Positions 6,132 to 25,496 of a stretch of DNA of 41,894 nucleotides are shown piece by piece (position 1 is the stretch's first letter; the number at the start of each line of letters is the position of its first letter). The stretch spans positions 1-41,894 of the forward strand of contig JAVKHQ010000023.1 of assembly GCA_031459875.1 (NCBI GenBank). Direction: 5' to 3'. The notes beneath the pieces are model-generated. The model did no database searches and had not been told where the DNA came from. It saw only the letters and a program-made list of their open reading frames with translations. The position numbers and the translations under genes were made by a program. The DNA comes from Candidatus Fervidifonticultor sextus (GTDB lineage: Bacteria; Sysuimicrobiota; Sysuimicrobiia; Sysuimicrobiales; Humicultoraceae).

Positions 6132-6560
6132 ATGGCGATGACGCGAACCCAGAAGGCCGACCTGCTGCGCCGTGTCGAGTTGTTCTCCGGCGTCCCGGCG
6201 CGGGCGCTGGGACTGATCGCGGATAAGACCGTCGAGGTGGCCTTCGAGCCGGGTCAGTACATCGTGCGTCAGGGTCAGGTCGGCACGGGGTTCTACCTCG
6301 TTGTCAGCGGACGGGTCCGTGTGGTGCGCGGCGGTCAGATCCTAGCCCGGCTGGGGCCGGGCGAGTTCTTCGGGGAACTCTCGGTCCTCGACCAGTCACC
6401 GAGGGTGGCGCATGTCCTGGCGGAGGAACCCACGACCTGCCTGGCTCTGGCGTCCTGGGACTTCACGGAACTGCTGGAGAAGAACCCGAAGATTGCCCTG
6501 GGGCTGCTGCGGACCCTGGCCCGCCGGCTGCGCGCGGCGACGGATCAGGCGCACGATTGA
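6132..6560 (+). CDS. Stand-alone cyclic nucleotide-binding domain protein
   Basis: IVRQGQVGTGFYLVVSG and LGPGEFFGELSVLDQSPRVAHV (phosphate-binding cassette). No HTH. SD GAGGGAGG. Confidence 0.9.
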   Translation: MAMTRTQKADLLRRVELFSGVPARALGLIADKTVEVAFEPGQYIVRQGQVGTGFYLVVSGRVRVVRGGQILARLGPGEFFGELSVLDQSPRVAHVLAEEPTTCLALASWDFTELLEKNPKIALGLLRTLARRLRAATDQAHD

Positions 6561-8821
6561 GGCCTCGGAGGGGCCTCGACGGTCCCATGCGCGGTCTGCG
6601 CGGGTCGGGCTCCCATCATCCGCCAGAGGTGCTCGGGTGTGATGGGGAGTTCCGTCACCGCCACACCGGTGGCCGCCTGGACGGCGTTGCCCACCGCAGG
6701 GGCCACGGCCACAATGCCGCCTTCGGCCACCCCCTTGGCGCCGTACGGTCCCGGCCCACCACCGTGCTCCACGACCTCGCTGCGAAACTCTTCCGGTACG
6801 TCCTCCGCCAGCGGCACCCGGTACTCCAACAGGCTCCCGTTCAGCAGGTGCCCCCCTTCGAACCGCAGCGCCTCGAATAGCGCGTGCCCCAGCCCCTGCA
6901 CTACCGCCCCCTCGTCCTGCCCTTCGCACAGGTCCCGGTTGATCGCCTTTCCCGCGTCCACCACCGACACGTACCGCACCACCCGCACCGCTCCCGTCTC
7001 TGGGTCCACCTCCACCTCCGCCGCCCCGACCCCCATTTCCCAGAACGACCGGTCATGCTCGCCCGGCCGCGACCTGACATACCCTCGCCCGATCACCTCG
7101 CCCGCCGGCATTCCAAACGCCCCCGCCACGACCTCCGCGTATGTCGCCCGTCGCGCGCCCGCCCGGACTTCTCCGCCGCCGGCCTCCACCGCCTCGACCG
7201 GCACCCCCCACCACTCCGCCGCAAACTCCCGCACCTGCGCCAGCACGTCCCGTGCCGCCTCCTGCACCGCCAGCCCCATCGACACCGTTGTGCGGCTCAT
7301 GCTGGTGGCCTGATCGTAGGGGACGGCCGCAGTGTCTGGCGGGGAGAGCATCACCTGCTGCAGCGGCACACCCAGCTCAAGCGACACAATCTGCCGGAGG
7401 ATGGTCGAGGCCCCCTGCCCGATCTCCACGCTGCCGCTGCTGACCGTAGCGCTGCCGTCGGCGTGCAGCCGCACCACAGCCGTAGACACCGTCCTGCTCC
7501 CGCCGCCGTCCTTGAACCCGAAAGCGATCCCCCGGCCGCGGCCGCGCGGTAGCGGTTTCCCCCACCCGATCAGCTCGGCGGCTCGCTCCAGCATCTCCAG
7601 CGGCTCGCAGTCCATCGGCGGCTTCCCCGGCCGCACGACCTCGCCGCGGCGCACCACGTTGCGCCGCCGCACCTCCAGCGGATCCAGTCCCAGGCGGTGA
7701 GCCACGAGGTCCATCTGCCGTTCTGTGGCCCACGCCACCTGGGGGCCGCCAAACCCGCGCATCGAGCCTGCCGGAACCTTCGTCGTGTAGACACAGTACA
7801 CGTCCACCCGGGCGTGCGGCGTCCGGTACGGCCCCAGCGCCCGCAGCGCCACCTTGTTGGCCACCCGTGGCCCGGTGTCGGCATAGGCGCCCGTGTCCAG
7901 GTAGACGGTGTACTGACGCGCCACCAGGGTGCCGTCCCGGCGCACCCCGACCTTGACCGTGCAGACGGCCGCGTGACGCGTCAGGAGCTGAAACACCTCC
8001 TCCCCGTCCAGGATCAGCCGCACCGGCCTCCCCGCCTTGCGCGCCAGGGCTACGGTCAGCGGCTCCAGCTTCGAGTAGGCCTTCATCCCGAATCCGCCGC
8101 CGACCCACGGCGCCATGACCCGCACGCGGCTGAGCGGCAGCCCGAACAGCCGGGCGAGGTCCCAGGCGACGGGAAACGGGTGCTGGGTGGACGACCACAC
8201 CACCACGCCGTCATCCATCCAGTGCGCGACCACCGCGTGCGGCTCCAGCGGAAGGGGCGCCACGGCCGGCACCAGGAAGCGGTCCTCGAAGACCAAGTCG
8301 GCTTCGGCCAGACCTTGCTCGACGTCGCCCTGCACGAACTGTGCGTGGTGGCAGATGTTGGTCTGTGGCACCGGACGCAGGTTGGCCAGATCACCGAACA
8401 GACCCGAGGGCTCCAGCGTCTCGTGGAGCAACGGCGCTCCCGGGGCGATCGCCGCTTCGACGGTGGGCAGGTCTGAAAGCGGCCTGTACTCCACGTCAAT
8501 CAGTTGGCAGGCGGCGTCGGCGGTCGACGTGTCCACGGCCGCCACCGCAGCGACCGGTTCGCCGACGAAGCGCACGCGATCCGTCGCCACGATGGGCTGG
8601 TCCCGGTAGGCCACGCCGAAGTAGGGGGCGGGCGGGAGGTCATCGCGGGTCAGCACGGCCACCACACCGGGCAGCGCAGCGGCCCGCGAGACGTCCACCC
8701 ACTCGACAAGGGCGTGGGGGTAGGGGCTGCGCACCACCCTGGCGGCGAGCGCCTCCGGCACGGGTAGATCCGCCGTGAACCGGGCTGCGCCGGTGACCTT
8801 GTGTTCCGCATCGAGCCGCAT
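6545..8821 (-). CDS. Xanthine dehydrogenase/aldehyde oxidoreductase family molybdopterin-binding large subunit
   Basis: KVTGAARFTADL, VRSPYPHA, VGGGFGMK, GSMRGFGGPQ, EIGQG, GPYGAKGVAE. Confidence 0.93.
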   Translation of the reverse strand: MRLDAEHKVTGAARFTADLPVPEALAARVVRSPYPHALVEWVDVSRAAALPGVVAVLTRDDLPPAPYFGVAYRDQPIVATDRVRFVGEPVAAVAAVDTSTADAACQLIDVEYRPLSDLPTVEAAIAPGAPLLHETLEPSGLFGDLANLRPVPQTNICHHAQFVQGDVEQGLAEADLVFEDRFLVPAVAPLPLEPHAVVAHWMDDGVVVWSSTQHPFPVAWDLARLFGLPLSRVRVMAPWVGGGFGMKAYSKLEPLTVALARKAGRPVRLILDGEEVFQLLTRHAAVCTVKVGVRRDGTLVARQYTVYLDTGAYADTGPRVANKVALRALGPYRTPHARVDVYCVYTTKVPAGSMRGFGGPQVAWATERQMDLVAHRLGLDPLEVRRRNVVRRGEVVRPGKPPMDCEPLEMLERAAELIGWGKPLPRGRGRGIAFGFKDGGGSRTVSTAVVRLHADGSATVSSGSVEIGQGASTILRQIVSLELGVPLQQVMLSPPDTAAVPYDQATSMSRTTVSMGLAVQEAARDVLAQVREFAAEWWGVPVEAVEAGGGEVRAGARRATYAEVVAGAFGMPAGEVIGRGYVRSRPGEHDRSFWEMGVGAAEVEVDPETGAVRVVRYVSVVDAGKAINRDLCEGQDEGAVVQGLGHALFEALRFEGGHLLNGSLLEYRVPLAEDVPEEFRSEVVEHGGGPGPYGAKGVAEGGIVAVAPAVGNAVQAATGVAVTELPITPEHLWRMMGARPAQTAHGTVEAPPRPQSCA

Positions 8822-8844
8822 GCCCGCCTCCGATCCGGTGCTAC

Positions 8845-10383
8845 CTACCGCTGGAGCCAGATCTCCCGGTACGACAGGATGCTCGGGTCGGGCAGGACCT
8901 TCAATCCCTGCACCCGCTTGCTGGCCGCCTTCAGCACCGGGAAGTAGTTGGTGAAGATCATCGGGGCGTCGTCTACGATGAGCCGCTGCGCCTCGGCGTA
9001 CAGGCGACGGCGTTCGTTGACGTCGGTGATCTCCCGCGCCCGGTCCAGCAACCGGTCCACCTGGGTGTTGGAGTACCGCATGAAGTTGGTGCCACCCTGG
9101 ATAGCCGAGGTGTGGAAATGGCGAAACATGTTGCCGTCGGGGTCGACGCGCCCGCTCCAGAACGACTGGCTGGCCTCGAAGGCGCCGGTGCGAAGGTTCC
9201 CCAGCAGCGTGCCGATGTCCACGAGCTGAATGGAGGCCCGCAACCCGGCGGCCGCAATCTGCTGCTGCACCAACTGGGCACGCGTCTGGTCCAGGGGGAC
9301 GTTGCGCACCTGGAGGGTAAAGGACACGCCGCCGGCCAGGCCGGCTTGCTGTAGCAGCGCCCGGGCGCGGTTGGAGTCATACGAGTAGGCACGCAGGGTG
9401 CTGTCGAACGCCCACATGCGGGGTGGGATCGGGCCCACCGCCGCCGATCCGGTCCCCCGGTAGGCCGCTGTCCGGAGTGCCTCCCGATCCACCGCCCAGG
9501 CGAACGCCTGGCGCACCAGCTTGTTGTCGAAGGGAGGTCGGCTGGTATTCAGCCGGATCATGTCGAAGCCAAACGACTCGACCTCGTAGATCGCCAGGTG
9601 GGGGCTGGCCTTTACCTTCCGCACGTCTCGCGGATCGACCCAGTCGGCCAGGTCGACCTGCCCCGTGCGCAGCATGGTGAGCCGCACCGTATCGTCGGGA
9701 ACCACGCGGAAGACGAGTTCGTCCAGGAACGGCTCGCCCCGCCGCCAGTAGGCGGCGTTCCGCCGGAAGGTGACGCGATCGTCCTTCACCCACTCCACGA
9801 ATTGAAACGGCCCGGTGCCCACGGGGTTGCGGCTGAGGTCCCGCCCGTATCGCTCGATGGCCGCAGGGGACACGATGTAGCCGTTGCGATCTGTGAGGAT
9901 ACTGAGGAACGGCGCAAACGGCTCCGAGAGGGTCACACGCACGGTGTGGCTGTCCACCACGTCCACGCGCTGCACCGACGCCATATCGGCCCGCAGCGGA
10001 GACCGGTTGGCGGGGTTGAGGATGCGGTCGAAGTTGATCTTCACGGCCTCGGCGTTGAAGTCCGTCCCGTCGTGGAACCTCACACCGCGCCGCAGGCTGA
10101 AGGTGTAGACCTTGCCGTCGGGGGATACCTCCCAGCGCTCCACCAGCCAGGGCACCACGTTGAGGTTCTCGTCGATCTCGAAGAGCGGATCGTAGACCGC
10201 TCGGTAGATGATGCGGTCCTCAGGTGAGGTAGACAGCAGGAAGTCCAGCGTCACCGCGTCCCCGCGCAGCGCAAAGGTCAGCCGCCCGCCACGCTGGACC
10301 GCCGGCGCGCCGTGCCCCACCCCACCCACCGTCGCCACCACCAGCAGGAGCACCACCGCGCACACCAACAGGAGCCTCCTCAC
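8845..10383 (-). CDS. ABC transporter substrate-binding protein (family 5, Dpp/Opp type)
   Basis: Signal peptide VRRLLLVCAVVLLLVVA, YTFSLRRGVRFHDGTDFNAEAV, PVGTGPF. Start GTG 10383. Confidence 0.92.
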   Translation of the reverse strand: MRRLLLVCAVVLLLVVATVGGVGHGAPAVQRGGRLTFALRGDAVTLDFLLSTSPEDRIIYRAVYDPLFEIDENLNVVPWLVERWEVSPDGKVYTFSLRRGVRFHDGTDFNAEAVKINFDRILNPANRSPLRADMASVQRVDVVDSHTVRVTLSEPFAPFLSILTDRNGYIVSPAAIERYGRDLSRNPVGTGPFQFVEWVKDDRVTFRRNAAYWRRGEPFLDELVFRVVPDDTVRLTMLRTGQVDLADWVDPRDVRKVKASPHLAIYEVESFGFDMIRLNTSRPPFDNKLVRQAFAWAVDREALRTAAYRGTGSAAVGPIPPRMWAFDSTLRAYSYDSNRARALLQQAGLAGGVSFTLQVRNVPLDQTRAQLVQQQIAAAGLRASIQLVDIGTLLGNLRTGAFEASQSFWSGRVDPDGNMFRHFHTSAIQGGTNFMRYSNTQVDRLLDRAREITDVNERRRLYAEAQRLIVDDAPMIFTNYFPVLKAASKRVQGLKVLPDPSILSYREIWLQR

Positions 10384-10439
10384 CTGTATCGCACCCCCTT
10401 CTTCTTTCGAGCTAGCCACCACATCAGGCCCACACCCCG

Positions 10440-11336
10440 CTAGCGCCGTCCTTGCAGGCGCGGATCCAAAAGATCCCGCAGCCCGTCCGCGAAGAAGTTC
10501 AGGCAGAGGATCAACCCCGCGAGCAAAGTCCCGGTGAGCAGCGGCCACCACGAAGCCGATTCCAGATACGGATACCCCTCCCGCAGCATCGCGCCCAGGC
10601 TGGGCGTGGGCGGCTGCACCCCCAGCCCAAGAAAGCTCAGGCTGGCCTCGATCTGAATGGCGGTGGCCATGCTGACGCTGGCGAACACGATCAGCGGGCC
10701 CAAGATGTTGGGCAGCACGTGGCGGACGAGGACGCGACCCTCTGCCATGCCGAGCGCCCGCGCGGCTTCGACGAACTCCCGGTGCCGCAGCGACAACACC
10801 TGTCCCCGCGTCAACCGGGCGAATGATGGTGCATACACGACGCCCACCGCCATGATCGTGTTGCCCAGACCGGGCCCCAGGACCGCGTTGAGGGCTGTGG
10901 CCAGCACGAGAATGGGAAACGCCTGCAGGGCGTCGACGACCCGCATGATCGCTGTGTCCCACCATCCCATCCAGAATCCGGCCACAGCGCCCACGGTCAG
11001 CCCCACCGCCGCGGCGATCAGCACCGAGGCCAGACCGGCCAGGAGCGAGACACGGATGCCGAACAGCATCCGGCTGAGCAGGTCTCTTCCCAGATGATCC
11101 GTGCCGAACAGATGCCGCTGCCCCGGTGAGGTCAGCAGCGCCGAGTAGTCCTGCGCCGCCGGGTCGTGGGGCGCCAGGTGCGGCGCCAGGATGCCGGCCG
11201 CGGTGATCACGGCCAGGGTGCCGGCCGCGGCCAGCACCACGGGGTTGCGGCGCAGAAAGCGGATCAGCCAGGAGGCTCGGGCTGCCCGACTGGGATAGCG
11301 GGCCACGCGCTCCGCCAGGTGCACCGTCGTCTCCAT
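10440..11336 (-). CDS. ABC transporter permease (DppC/OppC type)
   Basis: HLFGTDHLGRDLLSR, EFVEAARALG (EAA loop), EASLSFLGLGVQPP. Confidence 0.93.
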   Translation of the reverse strand: METTVHLAERVARYPSRAARASWLIRFLRRNPVVLAAAGTLAVITAAGILAPHLAPHDPAAQDYSALLTSPGQRHLFGTDHLGRDLLSRMLFGIRVSLLAGLASVLIAAAVGLTVGAVAGFWMGWWDTAIMRVVDALQAFPILVLATALNAVLGPGLGNTIMAVGVVYAPSFARLTRGQVLSLRHREFVEAARALGMAEGRVLVRHVLPNILGPLIVFASVSMATAIQIEASLSFLGLGVQPPTPSLGAMLREGYPYLESASWWPLLTGTLLAGLILCLNFFADGLRDLLDPRLQGRR

Positions 11337-11353
11337 GCCCAGACGCTCCTAAC

Positions 11354-12295
11354 TCATGCGTACCGGATCCGTGGGTCGAGATACGCGTACGCCACGTCCA
11401 CGACCAGGTTGGCCAGGACCACCGACAACGCAATAACGAGGATCACCCCCTGCACCAGCGGGAAATCCCGCGCAAAGAACCCGTCCACCAGCATCCGGCC
11501 CACGCCCGGCAGCGCAAACAGCGTCTCGATCACGATGGTCCCGCCGATGATGGTGCGGACCTGCAACCCCAGGACCGTCACCACGGGAATCAACGCGTTC
11601 CGCATGGCGTGGCGCAGGACCACCACCGACTCCACCAGCCCCTTGCTGCGCGCGGTGCGCACGTAGTCTTCGCCCAACACGTCCAGCATGCTGCTGCGAA
11701 TCATGCGCGTCAGGACACCCGCCATGCCCATGCCGAGGGTCACCACGGGAAGCAGCAGCGTCTTCAGCCCCTCCAGGGGGTCGGTGAACGGGTCGATGTA
11801 GCCGCCGGCCGGGAGCCACGGCAACAGTACCGCCAGCCCCAGCACGAGGAGAATGCCCAGCCAGAAGTTGGGCAGCGAGATGCCCAGGATCGCCAGGAGC
11901 CGGCTGGCGTAGTCGGGAATCGTGTTGCGCCGGACGGCCGAGATGATCCCGGCAGGCACGGCGATCGCCAGGGAGATCGCCACTGCCAGCACGCCGAGTT
12001 GCAGGGTGGGGACCATGCGCCTGCCGATCTCCACGCTCACCAGCTGGTGCGTGCGCATCGACCGGCCCAGATCGCCCCGCACAACCCGCAAGAGCCAATC
12101 TGCGTACTGAACGACCACGGGTCGGTCGAGCCCAAACTCGGCGCGGATCTGCTGCAGCGTGGCCCGGTCGGCCTCGTCGCCCCCCAAGACGACCGCCGGA
12201 TCCCCGCCTGCGAAGATCAACAGGAACACCGTCAGGGTCACGAGCAGCAGGGTGACCGGCATCGCGCTCAGGCGCCCCAGGATGTAAGTGGTCAC
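11354..12295 (-). CDS. ABC transporter permease (DppB/OppB type)
   Basis: FGLDRP, GDLGRS, DYVRTARSKGL, IETLFALPGVG, LDPRIRY. Confidence 0.93.
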   Translation of the reverse strand: MTTYILGRLSAMPVTLLLVTLTVFLLIFAGGDPAVVLGGDEADRATLQQIRAEFGLDRPVVVQYADWLLRVVRGDLGRSMRTHQLVSVEIGRRMVPTLQLGVLAVAISLAIAVPAGIISAVRRNTIPDYASRLLAILGISLPNFWLGILLVLGLAVLLPWLPAGGYIDPFTDPLEGLKTLLLPVVTLGMGMAGVLTRMIRSSMLDVLGEDYVRTARSKGLVESVVVLRHAMRNALIPVVTVLGLQVRTIIGGTIVIETLFALPGVGRMLVDGFFARDFPLVQGVILVIALSVVLANLVVDVAYAYLDPRIRYA

Positions 12296-12777
12296 GGCGC
12301 CGGCCTCCCGGCAATCGCCGCCGTCGCCCTGGCCGCCTCCAGCACGGCCCCGACGATGCGCTTGTACCCCGTGCAGCGGCAGATGTTGCCGTGCAGCCAG
12401 CGGCGCACCTCGTCTTCAGCAGGGGTGGGCTGCGCGGCGAGCAGCGCCAAGGCCATCATGAGAAAGCCTGGGGTGCAGAATCCGCACTGCAGCGCCCCGT
12501 GCCGGATGAAAGCCTCCTGCAAAGGATGCAGGTGCGGTCCGGACGCCAGCCCCTCGACCGTCCGCACTTCGCGCCCGCGCGCCTCAAAAGCCAGGTAGGT
12601 ACAGGCGCTGACCGGTCGGCCGTCCACCAGCACCGTGCAGGCCCCGCACACCTCGACGTCGCAGGAGCGCTTGGTCCCGGTGAGTTGCAGACGATCCCGG
12701 AGCACGTCCAGCAACCATTCGTGCGGAGCGACCTCCAGGGAACACGGCTCGCCATTCAAGACGAACTCGATGCGCAT
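12292..12777 (-). CDS. 2Fe-2S small subunit (CoxS/XdhA-like)
   Basis: CDVEVCGACTV...C, QCGFCTPG, NICRCTGY. Confidence 0.93.
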   Translation of the reverse strand: MRIEFVLNGEPCSLEVAPHEWLLDVLRDRLQLTGTKRSCDVEVCGACTVLVDGRPVSACTYLAFEARGREVRTVEGLASGPHLHPLQEAFIRHGALQCGFCTPGFLMMALALLAAQPTPAEDEVRRWLHGNICRCTGYKRIVGAVLEAARATAAIAGRPAP

Positions 12778-13652
12778 CGGTCACTCCTTCCCCCGACCTC
12801 CGAGAGGCAGTCCCAGATCGTCCGGCGGGTCATCACCTCTACCAACGACCGCTTGTACTCTGCCGATCCGTGGAGATCGTCCACGGGGTCCACAGCAGCC
12901 GCCGCCGCTTCGGCGGCCTGGGCGGCCCGACGGTGGACCTCGTGATGCGCAAGCCCGGTCAGCACCTCCTCGGCGGCCGGCACCCGAAGGGGCACCGGTC
13001 CCACGCAGCCGATGGCGATCCGGCAGCGTTGGACCACGCCGTCGCCGAACGTCATGGCCACTGCCACCCCCAGCGATGGCCGCTCCAGGTAGCCGAAGCG
13101 CCGGTAGCCCAGCCTGGTGCCTGGCGTCGGCAGTGGGATCACCACGCGGGTAAGGATTTCATCATGGCGGAGGGCGGTCGTGTAGGCGTCTTGGTAGAAC
13201 CCTGCCACAGGCACCGTCCGCGTCCCGCGGTCGCTCTCCACATGCAACAGGGCGTCCAGCGCCAGGAGGAACGTGGGGGGGTCGGCGTGGGGGTCGCCAA
13301 ACGCCAGGTTCCCGCCGATGGTGCCGACGCTGCGCACACGGGGGTTGGCCACCTGGCGCTCCACCCGGGCCAGCAGCGGCAGGCGTTCCCGCAGAACCGG
13401 CGACCATTCCAGGTCCCAGTGGGTCGCCAGCGCCCCGATCTCCAGGTGTCCCGCCGATGGGTTGTAGGCAATCCCGGCCAGGCCGGGAATCCGCTTGATG
13501 TTGACCAGCGCCTCGTAGGAGGCCAGCCCCTGCTTGAGGATCAGCAGCAACTCGGTCCCGCCGGCGTAGACCTTGCCACGCTCCCCCAACTGGCGGAGAA
13601 GGACCGATGCCTCGGCCACCGAGCGGGGTTCGTGTAGGTCAAACGGCCTCAC
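12756..13652 (-). CDS. FAD-binding medium subunit (CoxM-like)
   Basis: VRPFDLHEPRS, AGGTELL, RSVGTIGGNLA...DPHAD, DDLHGSAEYKR. GTG start overlaps the upstream stop. Confidence 0.92.
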   Translation of the reverse strand: MRPFDLHEPRSVAEASVLLRQLGERGKVYAGGTELLLILKQGLASYEALVNIKRIPGLAGIAYNPSAGHLEIGALATHWDLEWSPVLRERLPLLARVERQVANPRVRSVGTIGGNLAFGDPHADPPTFLLALDALLHVESDRGTRTVPVAGFYQDAYTTALRHDEILTRVVIPLPTPGTRLGYRRFGYLERPSLGVAVAMTFGDGVVQRCRIAIGCVGPVPLRVPAAEEVLTGLAHHEVHRRAAQAAEAAAAAVDPVDDLHGSAEYKRSLVEVMTRRTIWDCLSEVGGRSDRCASSSS

Positions 13653-14230
13653 GCCGTCGTCTCCCGTGCGCCGCGCCACCAACGCAGGAACCGCGGCCGG
13701 ACCTGCGGCGGACGGCCCACGTAGGGTTCCGGCGGCCCAACCTCCGGCACGGTCAGCGCATCGATGAACGACAGCATGCCACTTCGCGCGGCGCGCCGTA
13801 CCGCCTCCACCAGCGCCGCGGCAGAGTCCACCCGCACCGCGGTGGGAATGCCGGCAGCCCGTGCCAGGGCCGCGAAGTCCACCCCTCGGCAGGGCAGGGG
13901 CTGACCTCCTGAAGATTCGTAGACGCCGTTGTTGAAGAGCAGGATGGTCAGATTGGACATCCCCGCGCCCACGACCGTCAGGAGGCTGCCAAGATTCATC
14001 AACAGCGCGCCGTCCCCCTCCATCGCCAGGACCCGGCGCGGCCACACCGCTGCGGCGAGCCCCAGGGCCACCGGGATGGCCATCCCCATGGCGTCATAGA
14101 TGTAGATGTCCTGGTCGCGTGGTCGCAGGCGGTGCCACAGCTTGGTCGGCGCGCCCAGACAGGTGACCACGATCTCCTCCTCGACCACTTGGCTCAGCGC
14201 CTCGAGGTAGGCGTACCGGGAGGTGCTCAT
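13649..14230 (-). CDS. ThDP-dependent decarboxylase beta subunit (ComE-like; sulfopyruvate/phosphonopyruvate decarboxylase family)
   Basis: AMGMAIPVALGLA and the ThDP motif GDGALLMNLGSL...NNGVYESSGGQ. Confidence 0.82.
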   Translation of the reverse strand: MSTSRYAYLEALSQVVEEEIVVTCLGAPTKLWHRLRPRDQDIYIYDAMGMAIPVALGLAAAVWPRRVLAMEGDGALLMNLGSLLTVVGAGMSNLTILLFNNGVYESSGGQPLPCRGVDFAALARAAGIPTAVRVDSAAALVEAVRRAARSGMLSFIDALTVPEVGPPEPYVGRPPQVRPRFLRWWRGARETTA

Positions 14231-14718
14231 GCCAGATCGTCCTTCCCCAACAGCAGCGCGACGCCGGTCTCTGCCGCCTCGGCGTACTCCATGGCCCTCA
14301 CCACCGCCCGCGGGAGACCGCCCAGTTCGGCCACGGTGTAGTGCGGCACCGCGAGCGCACTCAGAAACGGGACCACGTGGACGGCCTTGGGCACGTGCAG
14401 CCAGTACGGGTCGCCCGCCGAGCCGCGGTGGCTGACCAGCAGGAGCATGGGAAGGCGATAGCCCTTGGTCAGCAGGACCAACTCGGACCCGCACCCGAGC
14501 AGGCCGCCGTTCTGCACGATCAGCGCGGGCCGGGCTCCCGCGAAGGCGTACCCGGCGCAGATTCCCACGGCCTCTTCCTCGCGCGCCGCCCGGATGTGGC
14601 GGATCCACGGGACGGCGTCGGCTGCGGCGAGCAGGCCGGACATCCAGGTGTCTGGCACAGACACCAGCAGGCCCACCCCGGCCTCCCGGAGGCCGGCAAG
14701 CATCTCACGGTACCCCAC
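14227..14718 (-). CDS. ThDP-dependent decarboxylase alpha subunit (ComD-like)
   Basis: VSVPDT, AREEEAVGICAG, IVQNGGL, LLVSHRG. GTG 14718 follows GGGGAGG. Confidence 0.82.
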   Translation of the reverse strand: MGYREMLAGLREAGVGLLVSVPDTWMSGLLAAADAVPWIRHIRAAREEEAVGICAGYAFAGARPALIVQNGGLLGCGSELVLLTKGYRLPMLLLVSHRGSAGDPYWLHVPKAVHVVPFLSALAVPHYTVAELGGLPRAVVRAMEYAEAAETGVALLLGKDDLA

Positions 14719-16096
14719 GGCGATCCTCCCCTTCGGGCCCCGCCAACCAGGCGCTGAGGACGCGGATGTCCGGAAGGGCCTCCAGGCCTTCGACCAGGCC
14801 GGCGAGGGAGTCCGCATCCGCCGGGCTCCTACCCGCAAATGCCACAGACCGCTGCACCTTCTGCCGCAGAGCCTGGGGGGAGATCGGCCGGGCAGGGTCG
14901 CCCGGCGGCAGATCACACCGGGCTTCCAGGACCCCGTCGTCGTCCAGGCAGACCGCCACCCGCATCGGCACGAAATCCAGAGGCGTCGCAGGCGGCGGTC
15001 CGTAGACGACCTCCACGGAATTGGCGAGGGCCTCGGTGCCGCCATTGGGCTCCTCGCGGGCCAGCAGGTCCAGGGTGAACTCCCTCGTCTGCAGCGCCGC
15101 CGCCACGCACCACGCCAGGGAAAACTGCCGTCGGACGAGCGGCTCGCCGGTTGCCGGCGGGCGCGCCGCGATCAAAGTGAGCATCTCCGCACGAGGGATC
15201 TCCACCGAGACCTTCTTGATCCGCCGGCCGTTCAGCCGCTGCGCCACTTCCATGGCGGCCTCCACCGCAGGGTGCACGAAGCGGCAGCACGGGTAGGGCT
15301 TGAGGCTAACCCGCGTCGTCTCCCATCGCCGGCCGAGGTCGGCGAGCAGCACCTCGGGCCGCGCCCGACCCCGGGCGTAGGCGTCAAACAGCCCAAATGG
15401 GCCTTCCAGCACCCGGCGCGCAGCCGCCTGGCCCCGGGCTGCCAGCAGGGCCGCCGTCACGCCCCCTTCCGCCGCCAGCCCCATCTGCCAGCGCTTGGTC
15501 CACACCGCTTCGGCGATGCCCAGGCGGTGCCCGGCGCACCGGCTGTAGGCCAGGCCCAGGGCGGAGGCGGTGGCCGCCGGGCCCAGGCACAGCACTCGGG
15601 AGGCCGCCGCGGCTGCCCCGAAGGCGCCGCACAGCGCCGAGCGCTCAAACCCCACCAGCGGGCCCAGGGCCAGGCCCAACCGGGCCACCACCTCCACGCC
15701 GACGGCGGTGGCGGCCAGCATCTCGCGGCCGGCCGCGCCGCCTGCCTGCTCGGCGGCGGCCAGCACCGCCGGCACGACAGGGGCGGTGCAGTGTACGACG
15801 CCGGCGTCGTAGACGTCGTCAAACTCCCAGGCGTGGATCATTGCGCCGTTGGCCGCGGCGGCCAGCGGCGCAGGCAGCGATCCCCGCCATCCGGTCACCG
15901 TGGCGCGGCCACTGCCGGCCCACGATGCCATCTCTGTGACCAGCGCCGGCAGGGCCGGCGCCCGCTGGCCGGCCACGGCGTTGCCCAGGGCGTCCAGGAG
16001 CAGTCGCCGCGTCGCCGCCACCACGGCCGGCGGCAGATCGTCCGCGCTGACTGCGGCGCTCCACTCTGCGAGCTCCTCAACCAGCGGCCGCATCAT
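14705..16096 (-). CDS. MmgE/PrpD family protein
   Basis: LLDALGNAVAG, AAAANGAMIHAWEFDD...HCTAPVVPA, LEGPFG, KPYPCCRFVHP. Confidence 0.9.
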   Translation of the reverse strand: MMRPLVEELAEWSAAVSADDLPPAVVAATRRLLLDALGNAVAGQRAPALPALVTEMASWAGSGRATVTGWRGSLPAPLAAAANGAMIHAWEFDDVYDAGVVHCTAPVVPAVLAAAEQAGGAAGREMLAATAVGVEVVARLGLALGPLVGFERSALCGAFGAAAAASRVLCLGPAATASALGLAYSRCAGHRLGIAEAVWTKRWQMGLAAEGGVTAALLAARGQAAARRVLEGPFGLFDAYARGRARPEVLLADLGRRWETTRVSLKPYPCCRFVHPAVEAAMEVAQRLNGRRIKKVSVEIPRAEMLTLIAARPPATGEPLVRRQFSLAWCVAAALQTREFTLDLLAREEPNGGTEALANSVEVVYGPPPATPLDFVPMRVAVCLDDDGVLEARCDLPPGDPARPISPQALRQKVQRSVAFAGRSPADADSLAGLVEGLEALPDIRVLSAWLAGPEGEDRRGVP

Positions 16097-16126: not shown

Positions 16127-17086
16127 TCACGTGATGTACTTCTCGACGGTGAGATACCGGTCGCGACGGTCGGGCAGCACCGTCACCACCCGCGACCGCG
16201 GCCCCAGCTGGCGCGCCAGTCGAATGGCCGCCACCACATTGGCGCCGGCAGACACCCCGCACGCCAAGCCCTCCTCAGTCGCCAGCCGGTGGGTCATGGC
16301 CACGGCTTCATCGTCAGAGATCGCCGTGGTGTCGTGCACGAGGCCAGAGCGGTCGATCTCCACCAGGATGCCGTCGGTGATCCCCGGGACGATCGGCATG
16401 CGGTGCCGTGCCTCCTTGCCCAGCATCGGCAGCCCGGTGGGCTCCACCGACATCACCCGGATGTCCGGCCACGCCTCCCGCAGGGCCTGAGCCACCCCGA
16501 GCAGCGTGCCGCCAGTTCCCACGGACGCGGCAAAGCCATCCATGCGACCTACCGCCTGGGCTACGATTTCCCGTCCCGTCGTCTCTCGGTGGGCGCGCAC
16601 GTTCTCCGGGTTGCTGAACTGCCGCGCCCACCACACCCCGGGGGTGGAGGCCTCCAGGTCGCGGCACTTCATGCGGGGGAGGATCTCCAGGATCCCCCCG
16701 TGCAGGGTCGGGTCCATGGCCATCCCCTCCGCACGGGCGTCCACGGTCTGGATCTCCGCGCCGAACGCGCGCATGAGCTTCACCCGTTCTCCGCTGGCGA
16801 CCTCGGCCGGCATGAAGATCATCACCCGGTAGCCTTTCACCGCCGCGACGAACGCCAGGGCGATGGCGGTGTTGCCGGTGCTCGCCTCCACGATCGTGCC
16901 GCCCGGCCGCAACTTCCCCTCGCTCTCCGCCGCCGTGATCATGGACAGCGCGATGCGATCCTTGATGCTGCCGCTGGGGTTCAGGTATTCCACCTTCGCC
17001 CAGACCTCAGCGTCCAGCCCGTCGAGGACACGGCGGAGTCGGACCAGCGGCGTCTTGCCGATCGCATTGAGGATGCTGCTGTCCAT
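16127..17086 (-). CDS. Cysteine synthase family PLP-dependent enzyme
   Basis: IGKTPLVRL, KVEYLNPSGSIKDR (PLP Lys), EASTGNT, QFSNPEN, GTGGT, PDRRDRYL. Confidence 0.9.
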   Translation of the reverse strand: MDSSILNAIGKTPLVRLRRVLDGLDAEVWAKVEYLNPSGSIKDRIALSMITAAESEGKLRPGGTIVEASTGNTAIALAFVAAVKGYRVMIFMPAEVASGERVKLMRAFGAEIQTVDARAEGMAMDPTLHGGILEILPRMKCRDLEASTPGVWWARQFSNPENVRAHRETTGREIVAQAVGRMDGFAASVGTGGTLLGVAQALREAWPDIRVMSVEPTGLPMLGKEARHRMPIVPGITDGILVEIDRSGLVHDTTAISDDEAVAMTHRLATEEGLACGVSAGANVVAAIRLARQLGPRSRVVTVLPDRRDRYLTVEKYIT

Positions 17087-17132
17087 GCGGCGGTGCTCCT
17101 CTCCCCCGCCCCGCGACGGGGCGGGCCTCTGG

Positions 17133-18020
17133 TTAGCCCGAGGCCGGATCCAGTACGTCGCGGAATCCCTCGGCCATCGCGTTGAGTCCCAGCACCATCA
17201 GGCTCACCGCGCCGCCGTAGACGAGCATCAGGTGCGGCGCCTCCCACAGGTACGCCCGGCTGGCATGCAGCATGGCGCCAAACTCCGGCGTAGGGGGCTG
17301 GATGCCCAGTCCCAGGAAGCTGAGGCCGGCGGCCGTGAGCAGCGTCAGGGAGAACCGGATCATCGCGAACACCAGGACGGGGCCCAGGCAGTTGGGCACC
17401 ACGTGGCGGAAGAGGATGCGCCCCGGCGACGCGCCCAGCGCGCCGGCGGCCTCGATGTAGCTCTGGTGGGCGACCCCCAGGGCCGCCGCACGGCTCATCC
17501 GCGCGAACTGCGGGACGTTATACACCGTCATGGCCAGGATCAGGCTGGCGGTGCCCGGTCCCAACGCCGCCACGACAACGATGGCCAGCAACATGCCCGG
17601 CAGCGCCAGCAGGACGTCCATGACCCGCATGATCACCTCATCGGTGACCCCGCCGTGGACCGCCGCCCCCACCCCGGCCAGGAACCCGATCAGAAAGCTG
17701 GCCGAGATCACGGCCAGGCCGATGGCCAGCGTCAGGCGTGCGCCGTGCACGGCCCGGCTGAGGACGTCGCGCCCGAACTCATCGGTCCCCAGGAGGTGGG
17801 GCGCCCCCGGCGGCTGCAGCGTGCGCTCGAGGTCCTGGGTTACCGGGGAGTACGGGATCAGATGCGGGCCTGCGGCGGCAACCACAGAGAAGAAGGCCAC
17901 CAGCCCCAGGCCCAGGGCAGATAGACGGTTGTGCAGCAGGCGACGCCACGCACCGCGCCGCCTCGGCGGCGCCATTGCGGGAGCCGCCGCCTCCGCCAGG
18001 AGGGACGAGGCCGCCCTCAT
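17133..18020 (-). CDS. ABC transporter permease (DppC/OppC type)
   Basis: HLLGTDEFGRDVLSR, YIEAAGALG, LSFLGLGIQPPTPEFG. Confidence 0.93.
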   Translation of the reverse strand: MRAASSLLAEAAAPAMAPPRRRGAWRRLLHNRLSALGLGLVAFFSVVAAAGPHLIPYSPVTQDLERTLQPPGAPHLLGTDEFGRDVLSRAVHGARLTLAIGLAVISASFLIGFLAGVGAAVHGGVTDEVIMRVMDVLLALPGMLLAIVVVAALGPGTASLILAMTVYNVPQFARMSRAAALGVAHQSYIEAAGALGASPGRILFRHVVPNCLGPVLVFAMIRFSLTLLTAAGLSFLGLGIQPPTPEFGAMLHASRAYLWEAPHLMLVYGGAVSLMVLGLNAMAEGFRDVLDPASG

Positions 18021-18955
18021 CGTGCACTCCGTCGGAGCCGTGGGTCCACGGCGACGTAGATGAGATCAACGGTCAGGTTGAGGAGGACGAACACCGCGCC
18101 GACCAGGAGCACGGCGCCCTGGACGACGGGATAGTCGCGGTCTTTGATGGCGTCCACGATCAACCGGCCGAGTCCCGGCCAGGCGAACACCGTCTCCGTC
18201 AGCACGGCGCCGGCCAGCATGTACCCGAACTGCAGCCCGACGACGGTGAGGATGGGCAGGATGCCGTTGGGCAGGATGTGGCGCACCATCACCCGACGCT
18301 CCGCCAATCCCTTGGCCCGTGCGACGCGGATGTAGTCCTGCCGGAACACCTCCAGCATGGAGGCGCGGGCAACACGGGAGATCAGGGCGACCGACGGCGC
18401 GCTGAGGGTCAACGCCGGCAGAATCAGCCGTTCCAGCCCGCCTTTGCCGGCCGAGGGCAGGAGACCCAGTTGCACGCTGACCGTCCACTGCAACAGCAGC
18501 CCAATCCAGAACACCGGCAGCGAGATCCCGGCCAGCGAGGCCAGCAGCCCGACGTGGTCCCACAGGGTGAACCGCCGGGCTGCGGCCAGCGTGCCCAGCG
18601 ACAGGCCGGCGGTGACGGCCATCATCAGGCTGACGGTGGCCAACTGCGCTGTGTTAAGCGCCTTGGGCAGGAGATCTTCTCCCACGCGCCGCTGGGTGAG
18701 GATGGAGCGGCCCAAATCCCCCGTGACGATGCGGCCCACGTACCGCGCATACTGGACCAGCACGGGCCGGTCGAGGCCCAGTGACTGGCGGAGCCGCTGT
18801 TCCAGCGTGGGATCGGCCACTTCCACCCCCAGGTACACCTGGATGGGATCCCCGGGCACCAGGCGCAGCATCAGAAAGACCAGCAGGCTCAAGCCGAGCA
18901 GGACCAGGATCGTGGCCGCCAGCCGTCGGGCGACGAACTCAACCACCCGGATCAC
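18017..18955 (-). CDS. ABC transporter permease (DppB/OppB type)
   Basis: LVPGDP, LGLDRP, GDLGRS, DYIRVARAKGL, TETVFAWPGLG. GTG start overlaps the binding-protein stop (GTGA). Confidence 0.93.
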   Translation of the reverse strand: MIRVVEFVARRLAATILVLLGLSLLVFLMLRLVPGDPIQVYLGVEVADPTLEQRLRQSLGLDRPVLVQYARYVGRIVTGDLGRSILTQRRVGEDLLPKALNTAQLATVSLMMAVTAGLSLGTLAAARRFTLWDHVGLLASLAGISLPVFWIGLLLQWTVSVQLGLLPSAGKGGLERLILPALTLSAPSVALISRVARASMLEVFRQDYIRVARAKGLAERRVMVRHILPNGILPILTVVGLQFGYMLAGAVLTETVFAWPGLGRLIVDAIKDRDYPVVQGAVLLVGAVFVLLNLTVDLIYVAVDPRLRRSAR

Positions 18956-20505: not shown

Positions 20506-20544
20506 CCTCCTCGCTCGGCTATCCTCGCCTCACCCGCTCGGTCC

Positions 20545-20901
20545 CTATCCCTCACCCACGGTCAACCGGCGCCTGCGCGGGATGGGCGCGGAGAAGTCCA
20601 CCACCAGGTCGCGGATGAGCCTGTAGCCATCGATGGGTTCGATGGTCATCTCCTCACCCTCCGGCACCTTCTCCAGGCATGTCAGCCGCTGCTTGCCGTT
20701 CACCTTGGCGAAGCAGGTGTTGCACATCGTGTCCCGGCACAGGTAGCGCCGGTAGTTGAGGGTGGGGTCCACCTCATCGCAGAGGTGCTCCATCACGTCC
20801 AGGACCCGCAACTTCCCGGTCCGGTCGACCTCGTAGACCTGATAGCGAGGTGCCGCATCGACGCGGGGATCATACCTAAAGACGCGCACTCTGAGCTTCA
20901 A
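20545..20901 (-). CDS. Stand-alone 2Fe-2S protein equivalent to the N-terminal domain of SdhB/FrdB
   Basis: RVFRYDP, DPTLNYRRYLCRDTMCNTC...VNGKQRLTC, IRDLVVD. The protein ends before any 4Fe-4S/3Fe-4S domain. Confidence 0.85.
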   Translation of the reverse strand: MKLRVRVFRYDPRVDAAPRYQVYEVDRTGKLRVLDVMEHLCDEVDPTLNYRRYLCRDTMCNTCFAKVNGKQRLTCLEKVPEGEEMTIEPIDGYRLIRDLVVDFSAPIPRRRRLTVGEG

Positions 20902-22606: not shown

Positions 22607-22801
22607 CCCGACCTCCTCAAGCCATCGAGGCGGTGCCCACAACGGCGCATCGCCGCAGGAACGGCACGATCCCGGGCCCGGCGACCGCCATCCTTAAGGC
22701 GACGAACCCCGACGGGGTCGAGAGCGCCCGGGCCGCCAGGCCAAAATGCCGCAGGCCCTCCCGTCAGTCCGCCGCTGAAGAACGTGCCGTTGATCCCGCC
22801 C

Positions 22802-24010: not shown

Positions 24011-24055
24011 GAGTCCCTCCCTTCAGGCCGGTGCTCCTCGGGCACGGGCCGCGAG

Positions 24056-24880
24056 TCACCAGCGGATGTCCACGTGGCGCAGGGCGTCGGTGATCTCCTG
24101 CGCGGTCTGCAAGAGCTTTGGGATGAACAGCCGCCGCAGCGTGCTCATCGGTCCCCGCTGCACCGGCATGGCCAGGCTGATCCCAGCCACCACCTGATGG
24201 CCGCGCGACCAGATCGGGGCTGCGGCCGAACGCAGGGCCAGTTCCAGTTCCTGGTTGTTGATGGCGTAGCCAAGGCGTCGGACCTCTCCCAGCGCCTTCT
24301 TAAGTTCCTGTCGGGTGGTGATGGTGTACGGCGTGAACCGCCGGAACTCGATGCGGTCCAGCAGCGCATCCACTTCGGCTTCGTCGCGGAAAGCCAGGAT
24401 GACCTTGCCGATGGATGTGCAGTAGACGGGCAGGCGGCTGCCGACGGTGAGGGTGGTGCTCATCAGACGCTTGCGTTGGGCACGGGCTACGTAGACGATC
24501 TCCGTACCATCCAGGATCGCCATGCTGGCCGACTCATCCGTCTCCTGCGCCAGACGCTCCAGGTAGGGCAACGCGATCTCCGGCGCCCTCAGCCCGCGCA
24601 GGCTGGCGTGGCCCAGCGCCAGGATCCTCAGGCCGAGGATGTAGCCCCTGCCGTTGGCTCCCCGGACCAGGTAGCCGTGCCGCTCCAGCGCCGCCACAAA
24701 GCGATGGACGGTGCCCTTGGGCATGCCGACCCTCCGGGCAATGTCGGTGAGGGTCAACTCCGGCTGCTCGGGGGTGAAGCACGCCAGCACCTGGAGTCCG
24801 CGGAACAGCGTGCGCATCTCGTAGGCGTTGCGGGCGCCGGCCGCGGCGGCCGGTTCTCTGGAAACGAGGGCTGGTTTCAC
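24056..24880 (-). CDS. IclR family transcriptional regulator
   Basis: HTH LTLTDIARRVGMPKGTVHRF, GSRLPVYCTSIGK, GYAINNQELE..RSAAAP. Alternative start ATG 24817. Confidence 0.93.
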   Translation of the reverse strand: MKPALVSREPAAAAGARNAYEMRTLFRGLQVLACFTPEQPELTLTDIARRVGMPKGTVHRFVAALERHGYLVRGANGRGYILGLRILALGHASLRGLRAPEIALPYLERLAQETDESASMAILDGTEIVYVARAQRKRLMSTTLTVGSRLPVYCTSIGKVILAFRDEAEVDALLDRIEFRRFTPYTITTRQELKKALGEVRRLGYAINNQELELALRSAAAPIWSRGHQVVAGISLAMPVQRGPMSTLRRLFIPKLLQTAQEITDALRHVDIRW

Positions 24881-24892
24881 AGGATGAAACCA
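24872..24892. promoter_or_regulatory. Candidate IclR operator palindrome
   Basis: Perfect inverted repeat TGGTTTCA-CAGGA-TGAAACCA overlapping the iclR GTG start. Confidence 0.7.
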
Positions 24893-24899
24893 AATCTTG

Positions 24900-24929
24900 T
24901 TGACTGAAACTTTGCGGCAACTCTATCAT
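24900..24929 (+). promoter_or_regulatory. Sigma70 promoter for the coxG-like gene
   Basis: TTGACT-N18-TATCAT. Confidence 0.65.
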
Positions 24930-25010
24930 GAGGAGGCGCGCGCGGTCAAGGACCGCCGTTCGCCCCCGAGCCGGGCGGCGACTGGACGTCCCAGATCCTG
25001 AGGGGTGCCC

Positions 25011-25496
25011 ATGCGATTCGAACACAGCCTCCAGATCTCCGCCCCCCCGCAGGAGCTGTGGGAGTTTCTGTGGCAGGTGGAGCAGGTGGCCGCCTGCCTG
25101 CCGGGTTGCCGGGGTGTCCGGGTCATCGAGCCGCGTCGCACCTATGAGGCAGTGCTGACGGATCGCGTCGGACCCTTCCACGTCCAGTTTCCGGTGACCA
25201 TCCAGGTCGATCGGGCCCAGGCCCCCACGTCCATCCAGGCCACGGTGCGCGGCAAGGACACGCGCATCGGCAGCGTGTTGACCTCCACGCTGCACCTGAC
25301 CCTGTCGCCGGACGCGAACGGGACGGCGCTTGTGATCGCGGTTGAGACCGTGCTCAGTGGCCGGCTGGGGGCGCTGGGCTACAGCACCATCAAGCGACGC
25401 GCCGACGATGTGGTCAAGCAGTTCGCCGCAAACCTGGAGCGCGCGCTGGCCACGCAAGCCGAAAGGGCCTCGGCGAAGGGCCCAGAGGGCAGGTAA
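25011..25496 (+). CDS. CoxG/SRPBCC family protein
   Basis: MRFEHSLQISAPPQELWEFL...VAACLPGC, LSGRLGALG...QFAANL. SD GAGGGG. Confidence 0.85.
   Translation: MRFEHSLQISAPPQELWEFLWQVEQVAACLPGCRGVRVIEPRRTYEAVLTDRVGPFHVQFPVTIQVDRAQAPTSIQATVRGKDTRIGSVLTSTLHLTLSPDANGTALVIAVETVLSGRLGALGYSTIKRRADDVVKQFAANLERALATQAERASAKGPEGR

What the first reader, a model, noticed from the sequence alone, without database searches (positions are those of the whole stretch)
6545..25496. Candidate undescribed IclR-controlled catabolic system, possibly for a sulfo- or phosphono-amino-acid conjugate
Seen: 17 co-oriented, mostly abutting genes (IclR, M20 amidohydrolase, SdhA/NadB-like flavoprotein, 2Fe-2S protein, ABC-1, CysK-like, MmgE/PrpD, ComD/E-like, CoxM, CoxS, ABC-2, Mo large subunit) plus a divergent coxG. 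Established: family-5 SBPs import peptides and conjugates; M20 enzymes remove N-acyl or peptide groups; NadB oxidises aspartate to an imine; ComDE and phosphonopyruvate decarboxylases turn 3-substituted pyruvates into acetaldehydes; xanthine-oxidase-family Mo enzymes can oxidise aldehydes to acids. Inference: import, then deacylation, then oxidation of an aspartate analogue (e.g. cysteate or phosphonoalanine) to the 2-oxo acid, then decarboxylation, then Mo-dependent oxidation. I do not recognise this gene set as a published pathway, and the substrate is a hypothesis.
Basis: partly seen in the sequence, partly recalled or inferred. Interest (0 to 1): 0.78.

Follow-up and report, generated by a model that had tools for sequence, protein, structure and literature searches.

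The report
Undescribed cysteine-conjugate breakdown gene island
A hot-spring bacterium carries a 19-kilobase gene island, partly shared with two other bacterial phyla, whose enzymes have rebuilt active sites and likely import and dismantle a still unidentified, probably cysteine-derived and ring-containing acid by a route we did not find described.

Summary
In detail: 17 co-oriented genes plus a divergent coxG. They form an island inserted between two genes that are neighbours in 4 of 5 other genus members; a second species has it in the same order. A core of IclR, M20 hydrolase, SdhA-fold flavoprotein with stand-alone 2Fe-2S protein, CysK-like enzyme and importer recurs in an Anaerolineales genome and, with a more distant flavoprotein and M20, in a deltaproteobacterial one. 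The flavoprotein lacks NadB's catalytic Glu121 and the second carboxylate site (0 of 75 subfamily members keep His244). The ComDE-like pair scores 50-60% of the sulfopyruvate-decarboxylase cut-offs, its beta subunit branches apart from ComE and AepY, and a UbiD stands in its place in Anaerolineales. No C-S or C-P lyase lies in the island. Best reading (about 0.3): an N-acylated or cyclic cysteine-type conjugate is imported and deacylated, its monocarboxylate undergoes flavin C=C redox, decarboxylation and molybdenum hydroxylation (as LumKL/LumJ do on a heterocycle), and the CysK-like enzyme frees the substituent. Substrate, co-transcription and IclR control are untested. No matching pathway in 10 literature searches.

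The parts
25005..25496 (+). CoxG-family (SRPBCC) protein, divergent; right edge of the island
   Evidence: PF06240; island border at 25501
24881..25004 (.). Divergent intergenic region with one sigma-70-like match on each strand
   Evidence: 2 found in the region scanned, 1.4 +/- 1.2 expected, so not above chance
24056..24880 (-). IclR-family regulator (PcaR/PobR-like, below cut-off)
   Evidence: IclR also heads L071 and L291
22802..24010 (-). M20 ArgE/DapE-type hydrolase; H86, D119, E154/E155, H372 kept, DapE Glu ligand replaced by a Cys179-x-His181 motif
   Evidence: TIGR01910 passed; 61% to both M20 genes of L071
20876..22606 (-). SdhA-fold flavoprotein of a distinct subfamily; no covalent His, R292/H355/R389 kept, second carboxylate site rebuilt (F243, S260, S261, L263, W264), no NadB Glu121
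20545..20901 (-). Stand-alone 2Fe-2S protein (SdhB N-terminal domain only; Cys55, 60, 63, 75)
   Evidence: PF13085
18952..20505 (-). Family-5 binding protein 1 (best named match GsiB, below cut-off)
   Evidence: 47% to the L071 binding protein
18017..18955 (-). DppB-type permease 1
17133..18020 (-). DppC-type permease 1
16127..17086 (-). CysK/CBS-fold PLP enzyme of a distinct subfamily (K42; invariant H129, E134, R138, C141, R155)
14705..16096 (-). MmgE/PrpD-family protein; His102 aligned with the catalytic His of B. subtilis IRG1
14227..14718 (-). Two-subunit TPP enzyme, alpha (ComD-like, below cut-off)
13649..14230 (-). Two-subunit TPP enzyme, beta (ComE-like, below cut-off; separate clade)
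12756..13652 (-). Mo hydroxylase FAD subunit (CoxM-like)
12292..12777 (-). Mo hydroxylase 2x[2Fe-2S] subunit (CoxS-like)
11354..12295 (-). DppB-type permease 2
10440..11336 (-). DppC-type permease 2
8845..10383 (-). Family-5 binding protein 2 (start approximate)
6545..8821 (-). Mo hydroxylase large subunit (Gln213, Glu700 kept; no equivalog passed); left edge of the island
   Evidence: border at 6560

Best explanation
This is a gained-or-lost 19-kb island that likely imports an N-acylated or ring-closed cysteine-type (beta-substituted alanine) conjugate and would dismantle it by predicted deacylation, flavin-dependent C=C redox on a monocarboxylate, ring decarboxylation and molybdenum hydroxylation. 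Shown: the genes, the island, the conserved core, and the active-site changes. Inferred: (1) binding protein 1 with shared ATPases imports the conjugate; (2) the M20 enzyme removes an N-acyl or N-carbamoyl group; (3) the flavoprotein holds one carboxylate with H355/R389, uses R292 as acid/base as complex II does, and adds or removes hydrogen across the adjacent C=C of an acid whose far end is uncharged or cyclic, passing electrons through the 2Fe-2S protein; (4) the TPP pair (or UbiD elsewhere) removes a carboxylate next to a C=N or ring double bond; (5) the Mo enzyme hydroxylates the product and may supply the electrons for step 3; (6) the PrpD-like protein epimerises or hydrates an intermediate; (7) the CysK-like enzyme exchanges the beta-substituent and returns cysteine or serine to metabolism. 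A thiazole/thiazolidine carboxylate or an S- or N-heteroaryl alanine would fit all steps; no compound is identified.
For: Core order IclR-M20-flavoprotein-2Fe-2S-(importer)-CysK in the window and L291, and the same gene set in L071. Flavoprotein and CysK-like genes share contig length and source on 7 contigs (8 of 75 proteins; shifted-length null mean 0.38, max 4; 0 of 45 non-subfamily controls), one verified as L071; an M20 joins them on another (15,652 bases); flavoprotein and TPP beta are four accession numbers apart in an Anaerolineae record. R292, H355, R389 kept in 75 of 75, His244 site F/Y in 75 of 75, no Glu at the NadB-121 site. UbiD next to the core in L071. LumK/LumL followed by xanthine-oxidase-type LumJ is a published precedent (PMC12746152). 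Mo subunit is closest to 4-hydroxybenzoyl-CoA reductase and a pyridine hydroxylase, less to aldehyde oxidoreductases. More distant His-less flavoproteins sit with Mo hydroxylases, UbiD, amidohydrolases or a dihydroorotate-dehydrogenase-family gene in 4 of 5 loci and with purine genes on contig C31. Binding protein 1 is closest to glutathione-binding GsiB among named families.
Against: No substrate was identified and nothing was assayed. The CysK-like subfamily also occurs without the flavoprotein, beside ThrC-like and Ser/Thr-dehydratase genes in 4 Anaerolineae loci, so it need not be pathway-specific. L291's flavoprotein (39%) and M20 (34%) lie outside the strict subfamilies. Only two outside loci could be read as DNA; the Mo genes and second importer were seen with the core only in this genus, so the island may join two modules. 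The two PrpD genes are only 30% identical. No ring-opening amidohydrolase lies in the island. UbiD also acts on open-chain enoates (established knowledge), so it does not prove a ring.
Confidence: 0.3

Rival explanations
1. Open-chain thioether salvage: an N-acyl-S-(carboxyalkyl)cysteine (mercapturate type, as in the B. subtilis yxe S-(2-succino)cysteine operon) is deacylated, the flavoprotein desaturates the carboxyalkyl arm, the PrpD-like protein hydrates or epimerises it so that the C-S bond breaks without oxygen, and the TPP and Mo enzymes turn the resulting 2-oxo acid into an aldehyde and acid.
For: GsiB-like binding protein; M20 and CysK-like in the core; best solved relative of the PrpD-like protein is B. 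subtilis IRG1 (that this is YxeQ of the yxe operon is recalled); parallel loci with peptide ABC + short FAD_binding_2 flavoprotein + ComDE-like pair in 3 relatives, with PrpD in one; PrpD-TPPalpha-TPPbeta in the same order in Deinococcus.
Against: A succinyl arm would need the second carboxylate site, which is lost; no acetyltransferase, aminotransferase or 2-hydroxyacid dehydrogenase in the island to feed a 2-oxo acid to the TPP pair.
Confidence: 0.22
2. One reading: cysteate (or 3-sulfopropionate/sulfolactate, or phosphonoalanine) is oxidised to the 3-substituted pyruvate, decarboxylated by the ComDE-like pair and oxidised by the Mo enzyme to sulfoacetate or phosphonoacetate; the CysK-like enzyme makes or cleaves cysteate.
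For: ComD/ComE are the best NCBIfam names for the pair; a CysK-subfamily gene is adjacent to a D-cysteate-sulfo-lyase-like gene (394 of 450 bits) in G422; two invariant Arg in the CysK-like protein and a conserved Ser pair in the flavoprotein pocket could bind a tetrahedral anion; a tripartite tricarboxylate transporter accompanies L291.
Against: NadB Glu121, His244, Glu260, Ser389 absent (roles in PMC10249383); TPP scores 50-60% of cut-offs, CapA cysteate synthase 175 of 600; beta subunit outside the ComE and AepY branches (quick tree); UbiD substitutes in L071; no aminotransferase, SuyAB, CuyA or other C-S/C-P lyase among the 18 genes (known routes in PMC11193023).
Confidence: 0.15
3. A mosaic of two adjacent modules with different substrates: (M20, flavoprotein, 2Fe-2S, importer 1, CysK-like) and (PrpD, TPP pair, Mo hydroxylase, importer 2, coxG), moved together but not one pathway.
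For: Two importers; the Mo genes and importer 2 are absent from L071 and L291 (both contigs end close by); ComDE-like pairs and the CysK subfamily appear in many other contexts.
Against: One regulator, 8 overlapping junctions including PrpD through DppB2; flavoprotein and TPP beta adjacent in an Anaerolineae record; CysK-like and TPP beta share a 7,096-base contig in a relative at about 80% identity; PrpD and a decarboxylase also flank the core in L071.
Confidence: 0.2

Closest known systems
Lumichrome catabolism LumK/LumL and LumJ of Nocardioides simplex (PMC12746152; parts 1-3 of 6 of the text read, supplement searched for 5 terms)
   Same: Two-subunit TPP decarboxylase followed by a xanthine-oxidase-family hydroxylase in a catabolic cluster with transport genes.
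   Different: No P450, hydantoinase-type hydrolases, Rieske or catechol dioxygenase here; here a flavoprotein, CysK-like, M20 and PrpD-like gene. Sequence kinship to LumKL not tested.
Sulfopyruvate decarboxylase ComDE (TIGR03845/03846) and phosphonopyruvate decarboxylase AepY/RhiEF (TIGR03297; PDB 9iz3)
   Same: Split alpha/beta TPP fold, TPP-binding motif and catalytic Glu region.
   Different: Below all cut-offs; separate clade; neighbours differ from the Leisingera comDE locus. Best solved match of the alpha subunit is PDB 9u8q/r/s (E 6e-17), whose function could not be found.
L-aspartate oxidase NadB, complex II SdhA/FrdA, and thiol:fumarate reductase TfrAB
   Same: Full SdhA fold (model pLDDT 91.5, best match M. 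smegmatis Sdh1); R292, H355, R389; no covalent His, as in TfrA and NadB; TfrA is the best NCBIfam match (458 of 718).
   Different: Second carboxylate site lost, no Glu121; partner is a lone 2Fe-2S domain; no membrane anchor; the genome has ordinary SdhA genes elsewhere.
B. subtilis yxe S-(2-succino)cysteine operon (recalled; search returned no paper)
   Same: ABC importer, M20 hydrolase and MmgE/PrpD protein in one catabolic operon.
   Different: No acetyltransferase or flavin monooxygenase here; family-5 rather than polar-amino-acid importer; extra flavoprotein, CysK-like, TPP and Mo genes.
Cysteate catabolism via aminotransferase/SuyAB or CuyB/CuyA (PMC11193023; passages read)
   Same: PLP fold-type II enzyme; possible sulfopyruvate step.
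   Different: No aminotransferase, racemase, CuyA or SuyAB in the island.

Membership tests
L-aspartate oxidase (NadB) | Catalytic Glu121 | tested here: not met
   Ser125 in the window protein; Thr/Ser/Ala in 68 of 75, Glu in none at that column
L-aspartate oxidase (NadB) | His244/Thr259/Glu260 site for the second carboxylate | tested here: not met
   F243, T259 (variable), S260
L-aspartate oxidase (NadB) | TIGR00551 cut-off 452.75 | tested here: not met
   327.4 bits
SdhA/FrdA/TfrA | Arg287, His355, Arg390 (FrdA numbering) at the flavin | tested here: met
   R292, H355, R389 in 75 of 75
SdhA/FrdA/TfrA | His232, Thr244, Glu245 dicarboxylate site; full Fe-S subunit | tested here: not met
   partner is 118 aa
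SdhA/FrdA | Covalent FAD His | tested here: not met
   Gly49
Sulfopyruvate decarboxylase ComDE | Split alpha/beta TPP enzyme | tested here: met
Sulfopyruvate decarboxylase ComDE | TIGR03845/03846 cut-offs; grouping with annotated ComE | tested here: not met
   90.6/147.95 and 109.8/221.5; separate 46-row clade, support 99, quick tree with one ComE reference
Sulfopyruvate decarboxylase ComDE | Activity on sulfopyruvate | not testable with these tools
   needs assay
LumKL-type heterocycle decarboxylase | Two subunits of about 20 kDa with a Mo hydroxylase in the cluster | tested here: met
   163 and 193 aa, followed directly by CoxM/CoxS
LumKL-type heterocycle decarboxylase | Sequence kinship and activity on a heteroaryl 2-carboxylate | not testable with these tools
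   no LumK/LumL sequence was at hand
Cysteine synthase CysK/CysM | PLP lysine and fold | tested here: met
   K42; Foldseek best matches are CysK
Cysteine synthase CysK/CysM | TIGR01136/01139 cut-offs; canonical substrate loops | tested here: not met
   291.8/344.15 and 279/350.95; inserted loop with invariant His129, Glu134, Arg138, Cys141
Cysteate synthase CapA | NF053679 cut-off 600 | tested here: not met
   175.3 bits
M20 ArgE/DapE deacylases | TIGR01910 cut-off | tested here: met
   239.8/217.6
M20 ArgE/DapE deacylases | Glu metal ligand of the GEP motif | tested here: not met
   Cys-Val-His in its place in the window, both L071 genes and P0366
Named Mo enzymes (4-hydroxybenzoyl-CoA reductase, XDH, CODH, aldehyde oxidoreductases) | Equivalog cut-offs | tested here: not met
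   best 488/994.55; none passed
IclR-controlled operon | Single transcript and operator binding | not testable with these tools
   no RNA holder listed; promoter scan not above chance

The most novel reading that the evidence does not exclude
An oxygen-independent route that recycles cysteine from sulfur-nitrogen heterocycles (thiazole, thiazoline or thiazolidine carboxylates from thiamine, peptides or cysteine-aldehyde adducts): TPP or UbiD decarboxylation, Mo hydroxylation at C2, and reduction of the ring C=C by a complex-II-fold flavoprotein fed with electrons from the Mo enzyme. It would be the first complex-II-fold enzyme acting on such a ring and would define new flavoprotein, CysK and M20 subfamilies now mislabelled as fumarate reductase and cysteine synthase.
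Probability: 0.13. Interest if true: 0.82.

Novelty: new variant of a known kind. Interest (0 to 1): 0.58.

Why it matters
At least 75 flavoprotein clusters and more than 100 CysK-like clusters from hot springs and other environments are labelled 'fumarate reductase (CoM/CoB) subunit A' or 'cysteine synthase A' although their active sites say otherwise. The island gives a compact, thermophile-derived set of enzymes in which to find the real chemistry: a complex-II fold retooled for a monocarboxylate, a CysK fold with a new His/Arg pocket, and a second possible case of TPP-dependent ring decarboxylation, a reaction first reported in 2025.

Tried and rejected
Collection scans with the flavoprotein alignment used generic patterns and returned 1 subfamily locus among 159; both scans were then spent. 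Genome samples: 1 of 401 Anaerolineae-class genomes, 1 of 401 and 1 of 251 genomes of the deltaproteobacterial phylum (overlapping samples, the same hit), 1 of 91 relatives of G094; not found in those searched is not absence. Plasmid collection: no close relative of flavoprotein, TPP beta or CysK-like. Viral contigs: none. No RNA holder listed. Promoter, terminator and repeat scans gave nothing above chance. Island GC 0.690 against 0.701 for the genome; 65 of 407 windows are as low, so composition shows no foreign origin. ESM Atlas and Foldseek gave only the generic families. The alpha-subunit tree did not finish; the beta tree is the quick version with long branches. G670 was first counted as a subfamily member and then moved out after motif and tree checks. 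An early mapping of NadB Glu121 to Pro126 was corrected to Ser125. Rejected: CO dehydrogenase (scores below cut-off despite coxG), housekeeping SDH or CysK, a chimeric assembly. No complex prediction was run. Literature searches found no paper on this gene set or on PDB 9u8q/r/s; the library lacks most subscription journals.
Full report
Observation. ORF calling and Pfam confirm 17 minus-strand genes from 24880 down to 6545 and a divergent coxG at 25005-25496. Eight of 16 junctions overlap, seven are 17-56 bp and one is 195 bp. Neither importer has an ATPase; the genome has 39 family-5 binding-protein hits but 6 oligopeptide-ATPase-domain hits. Of the catalytic genes only the M20 passes an NCBIfam cut-off, and that is a broad subfamily model. 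A close homologue is labelled Armatimonadota; DNA holders are hot-spring metagenomes of one study.

The block is an island. In 4 of 5 other genus members (G001, G003, G004, G005) the flanking cNMP-domain gene and FAD-oxidoreductase gene lie 22-1,200 bases apart, with a PIN-domain gene in the gap in G004. G002 (84% complete) has both ends at 94.5% and 92.7%, broken at contig ends. One 17,694-base contig of run X4 covers 7477-25141 in the same order at about 94% identity. Among 61 related genomes only G000 and G002 have the close flavoprotein; among 94 phylum genomes only G000 has the close TPP beta and 2 have the CysK subfamily at over 500 bits.

A core recurs in other phyla. L071 (Anaerolineales) has UbiD (divergent), IclR, M20, 2Fe-2S (44%), binding protein (47%), flavoprotein (51%), DppB/C, a second M20 (60%), PrpD (30%) and CysK-like (57%). 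L291 (G670, from the phylum of a Thermodesulfobacteriota record) has TctC, IclR, M20, flavoprotein, 2Fe-2S, CysK-like (52%), TctB, TctA; its flavoprotein and M20 are outside the strict subfamilies. Indirectly, 8 of 75 subfamily flavoproteins share contig length and source with one of 118 CysK-like records (7 contigs; a further length match differed in source and was dropped), against 0 of 45 controls and a null mean of 0.38. An M20 shares a 15,652-base contig with both. Flavoprotein MFQ5856591.1 and TPP beta MFQ5856595.1 are four accessions apart. Two contigs carry two subfamily flavoproteins. Against a fixed pathway: 5 of 6 Anaerolineae genomes with the CysK subfamily had no subfamily flavoprotein in the same sample; there it sits with ThrC-like and Ser/Thr-dehydratase genes (4 loci) or with a peptide ABC system, a ThrC-like and a CuyA-like gene (1 locus).

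Flavoprotein. About 75 clusters at 47-97% identity form a subfamily, above methanogen TfrA-like proteins at 39-44%; 32 sampled rows form one clade (support 0.93). The model is a confident complex-II flavoprotein fold. Against FrdA, NadB and the genome's own SdhA: R292, H355 and R389 are kept in 75 of 75; the His of the second carboxylate site is Phe or Tyr in 75 of 75; the Glu is Ser/Thr in 71; S261 and W264 are kept in 73; there is no covalent His; the NadB Glu121 column holds Thr, Ser or Ala in 68 and no Glu. Glu121 is the base that deprotonates the amino group in NadB (PMC10249383, passages read). The enzyme therefore keeps one carboxylate site and the C-H acid/base but not the amine-oxidation or dicarboxylate features; C=C redox on a monocarboxylate is my inference. 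More distant His-less flavoproteins sit with Mo hydroxylases in 3 and with UbiD, amidohydrolases, a maleate-isomerase-family gene, PrpD or a dihydroorotate-dehydrogenase-family gene in some of 5 deltaproteobacterial loci, and with xanthine dehydrogenase and 8-oxoguanine deaminase on contig C31 of this genome.

TPP pair and Mo enzyme. The pair scores 90.6 of 147.95 and 109.8 of 221.5 against ComD and ComE. In a quick tree of 79 beta subunits it lies in a 46-row clade (99) apart from an annotated ComE and AepY, next to the Anaerolineae protein that neighbours a subfamily flavoprotein (84). Such pairs occur in varied catabolic clusters, including directly after PrpD in Deinococcus and with a Mo enzyme and Rieske dioxygenase in Rhizobium. 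LumK/LumL decarboxylates a quinoxaline 2-carboxylate and xanthine-oxidase-type LumJ then hydroxylates the ring (PMC12746152, parts 1-3 of 6 read). UbiD enzymes act on enoic and (hetero)aromatic acids, not 2-oxo acids (established knowledge), so a UbiD beside the same core argues against sulfopyruvate. The Mo subunit is closest to 4-hydroxybenzoyl-CoA reductase alpha (E 3e-90) and 6-hydroxypseudooxynicotine dehydrogenase (1e-72), with aldehyde oxidoreductases at 1e-50 or weaker; this is suggestive only.

Other enzymes. The CysK-like protein keeps K42 and the fold but has an inserted loop with invariant H129, E134, R138, C141 and an Arg before the conserved Gln in 35 of 35 aligned rows (35 of 120 hits were aligned). 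The M20 replaces the DapE Glu ligand by Cys-x-His; His ligands near this place in N-carbamoylases and hippuricase-type M20s are recalled, and the passages of PMC10952681 read did not settle it. The PrpD-like protein keeps the His aligned with the catalytic His of B. subtilis IRG1.

Mechanism. I commit to a cysteine-type conjugate, likely ring-containing, that is imported, deacylated, put through flavin C=C redox, decarboxylated and hydroxylated, with the CysK-like enzyme freeing the substituent (0.3). Rivals: open-chain thioether salvage (0.22), two modules with different substrates (0.2), the sulfonate or phosphonate route (0.15). Only gene content, conservation and residue changes are shown; every reaction is inferred.

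Novelty. All families are known, and regulator-importer-enzyme islands are common, but three enzymes belong to uncharacterised subfamilies with changed active sites and the set matched no pathway in ten full-text searches (listings seen, four papers read in part). Subscription journals are largely missing from that library, and the function of PDB 9u8q/r/s, the best solved match of the alpha subunit, stays open. Verdict: real, conserved, undescribed; substrate unknown; interest 0.58.

Noticed in passing
L307 (own genome, contig C31:1-16000): IclR, a far more degenerate SdhA-fold flavoprotein and 2Fe-2S gene sit with PucD-type and Se-dependent xanthine dehydrogenases and 8-oxoguanine deaminase; it has lost even the His/Arg pair at the flavin.
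   Followed up: partly
L283, L284, L288 (relatives of family f4): Parallel architecture: a 494-aa FAD_binding_2 flavoprotein (TcuA-like by recall) followed by a ComDE-like pair, with a peptide ABC set in L283 and PrpD in L284.
   Followed up: partly
L247, L251-L254: The CysK-like subfamily forms a trio with a ThrC-like and a Ser/Thr-dehydratase-like gene in four Anaerolineae genomes, all below their cut-offs.
   Followed up: partly
L301-L305: A wider radiation of His-less SdhA-fold flavoproteins in deltaproteobacteria, three with heterodisulfide-reductase-like or long partners, next to Mo hydroxylases, UbiD or tricarboxylate transporters.
   Followed up: partly
window 6560/25501; L295, L296: The insertion site holds a PIN-domain gene in G004 and an unrelated 1.2-kb insert in G001, so it is a variable spot.
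   Followed up: partly
window 37800-39002 (-): Insertion-sequence transposase whose HTH and integrase domains lie in different reading frames.
   Followed up: no
window 25501-27401 (-) and 6132-6560 (+): Two stand-alone cNMP-binding proteins and an FAD oxidoreductase form a conserved group that the island splits.
   Followed up: no
window 40873-41820 (+) and 39470-41116 (-): 2,4-diaminopentanoate-dehydrogenase-family gene divergent from a class I aminotransferase.
   Followed up: no
PDB 9u8q, 9u8r, 9u8s: Two-subunit TPP enzyme structures, the best solved match of the alpha subunit; no paper found in the library.
   Followed up: partly
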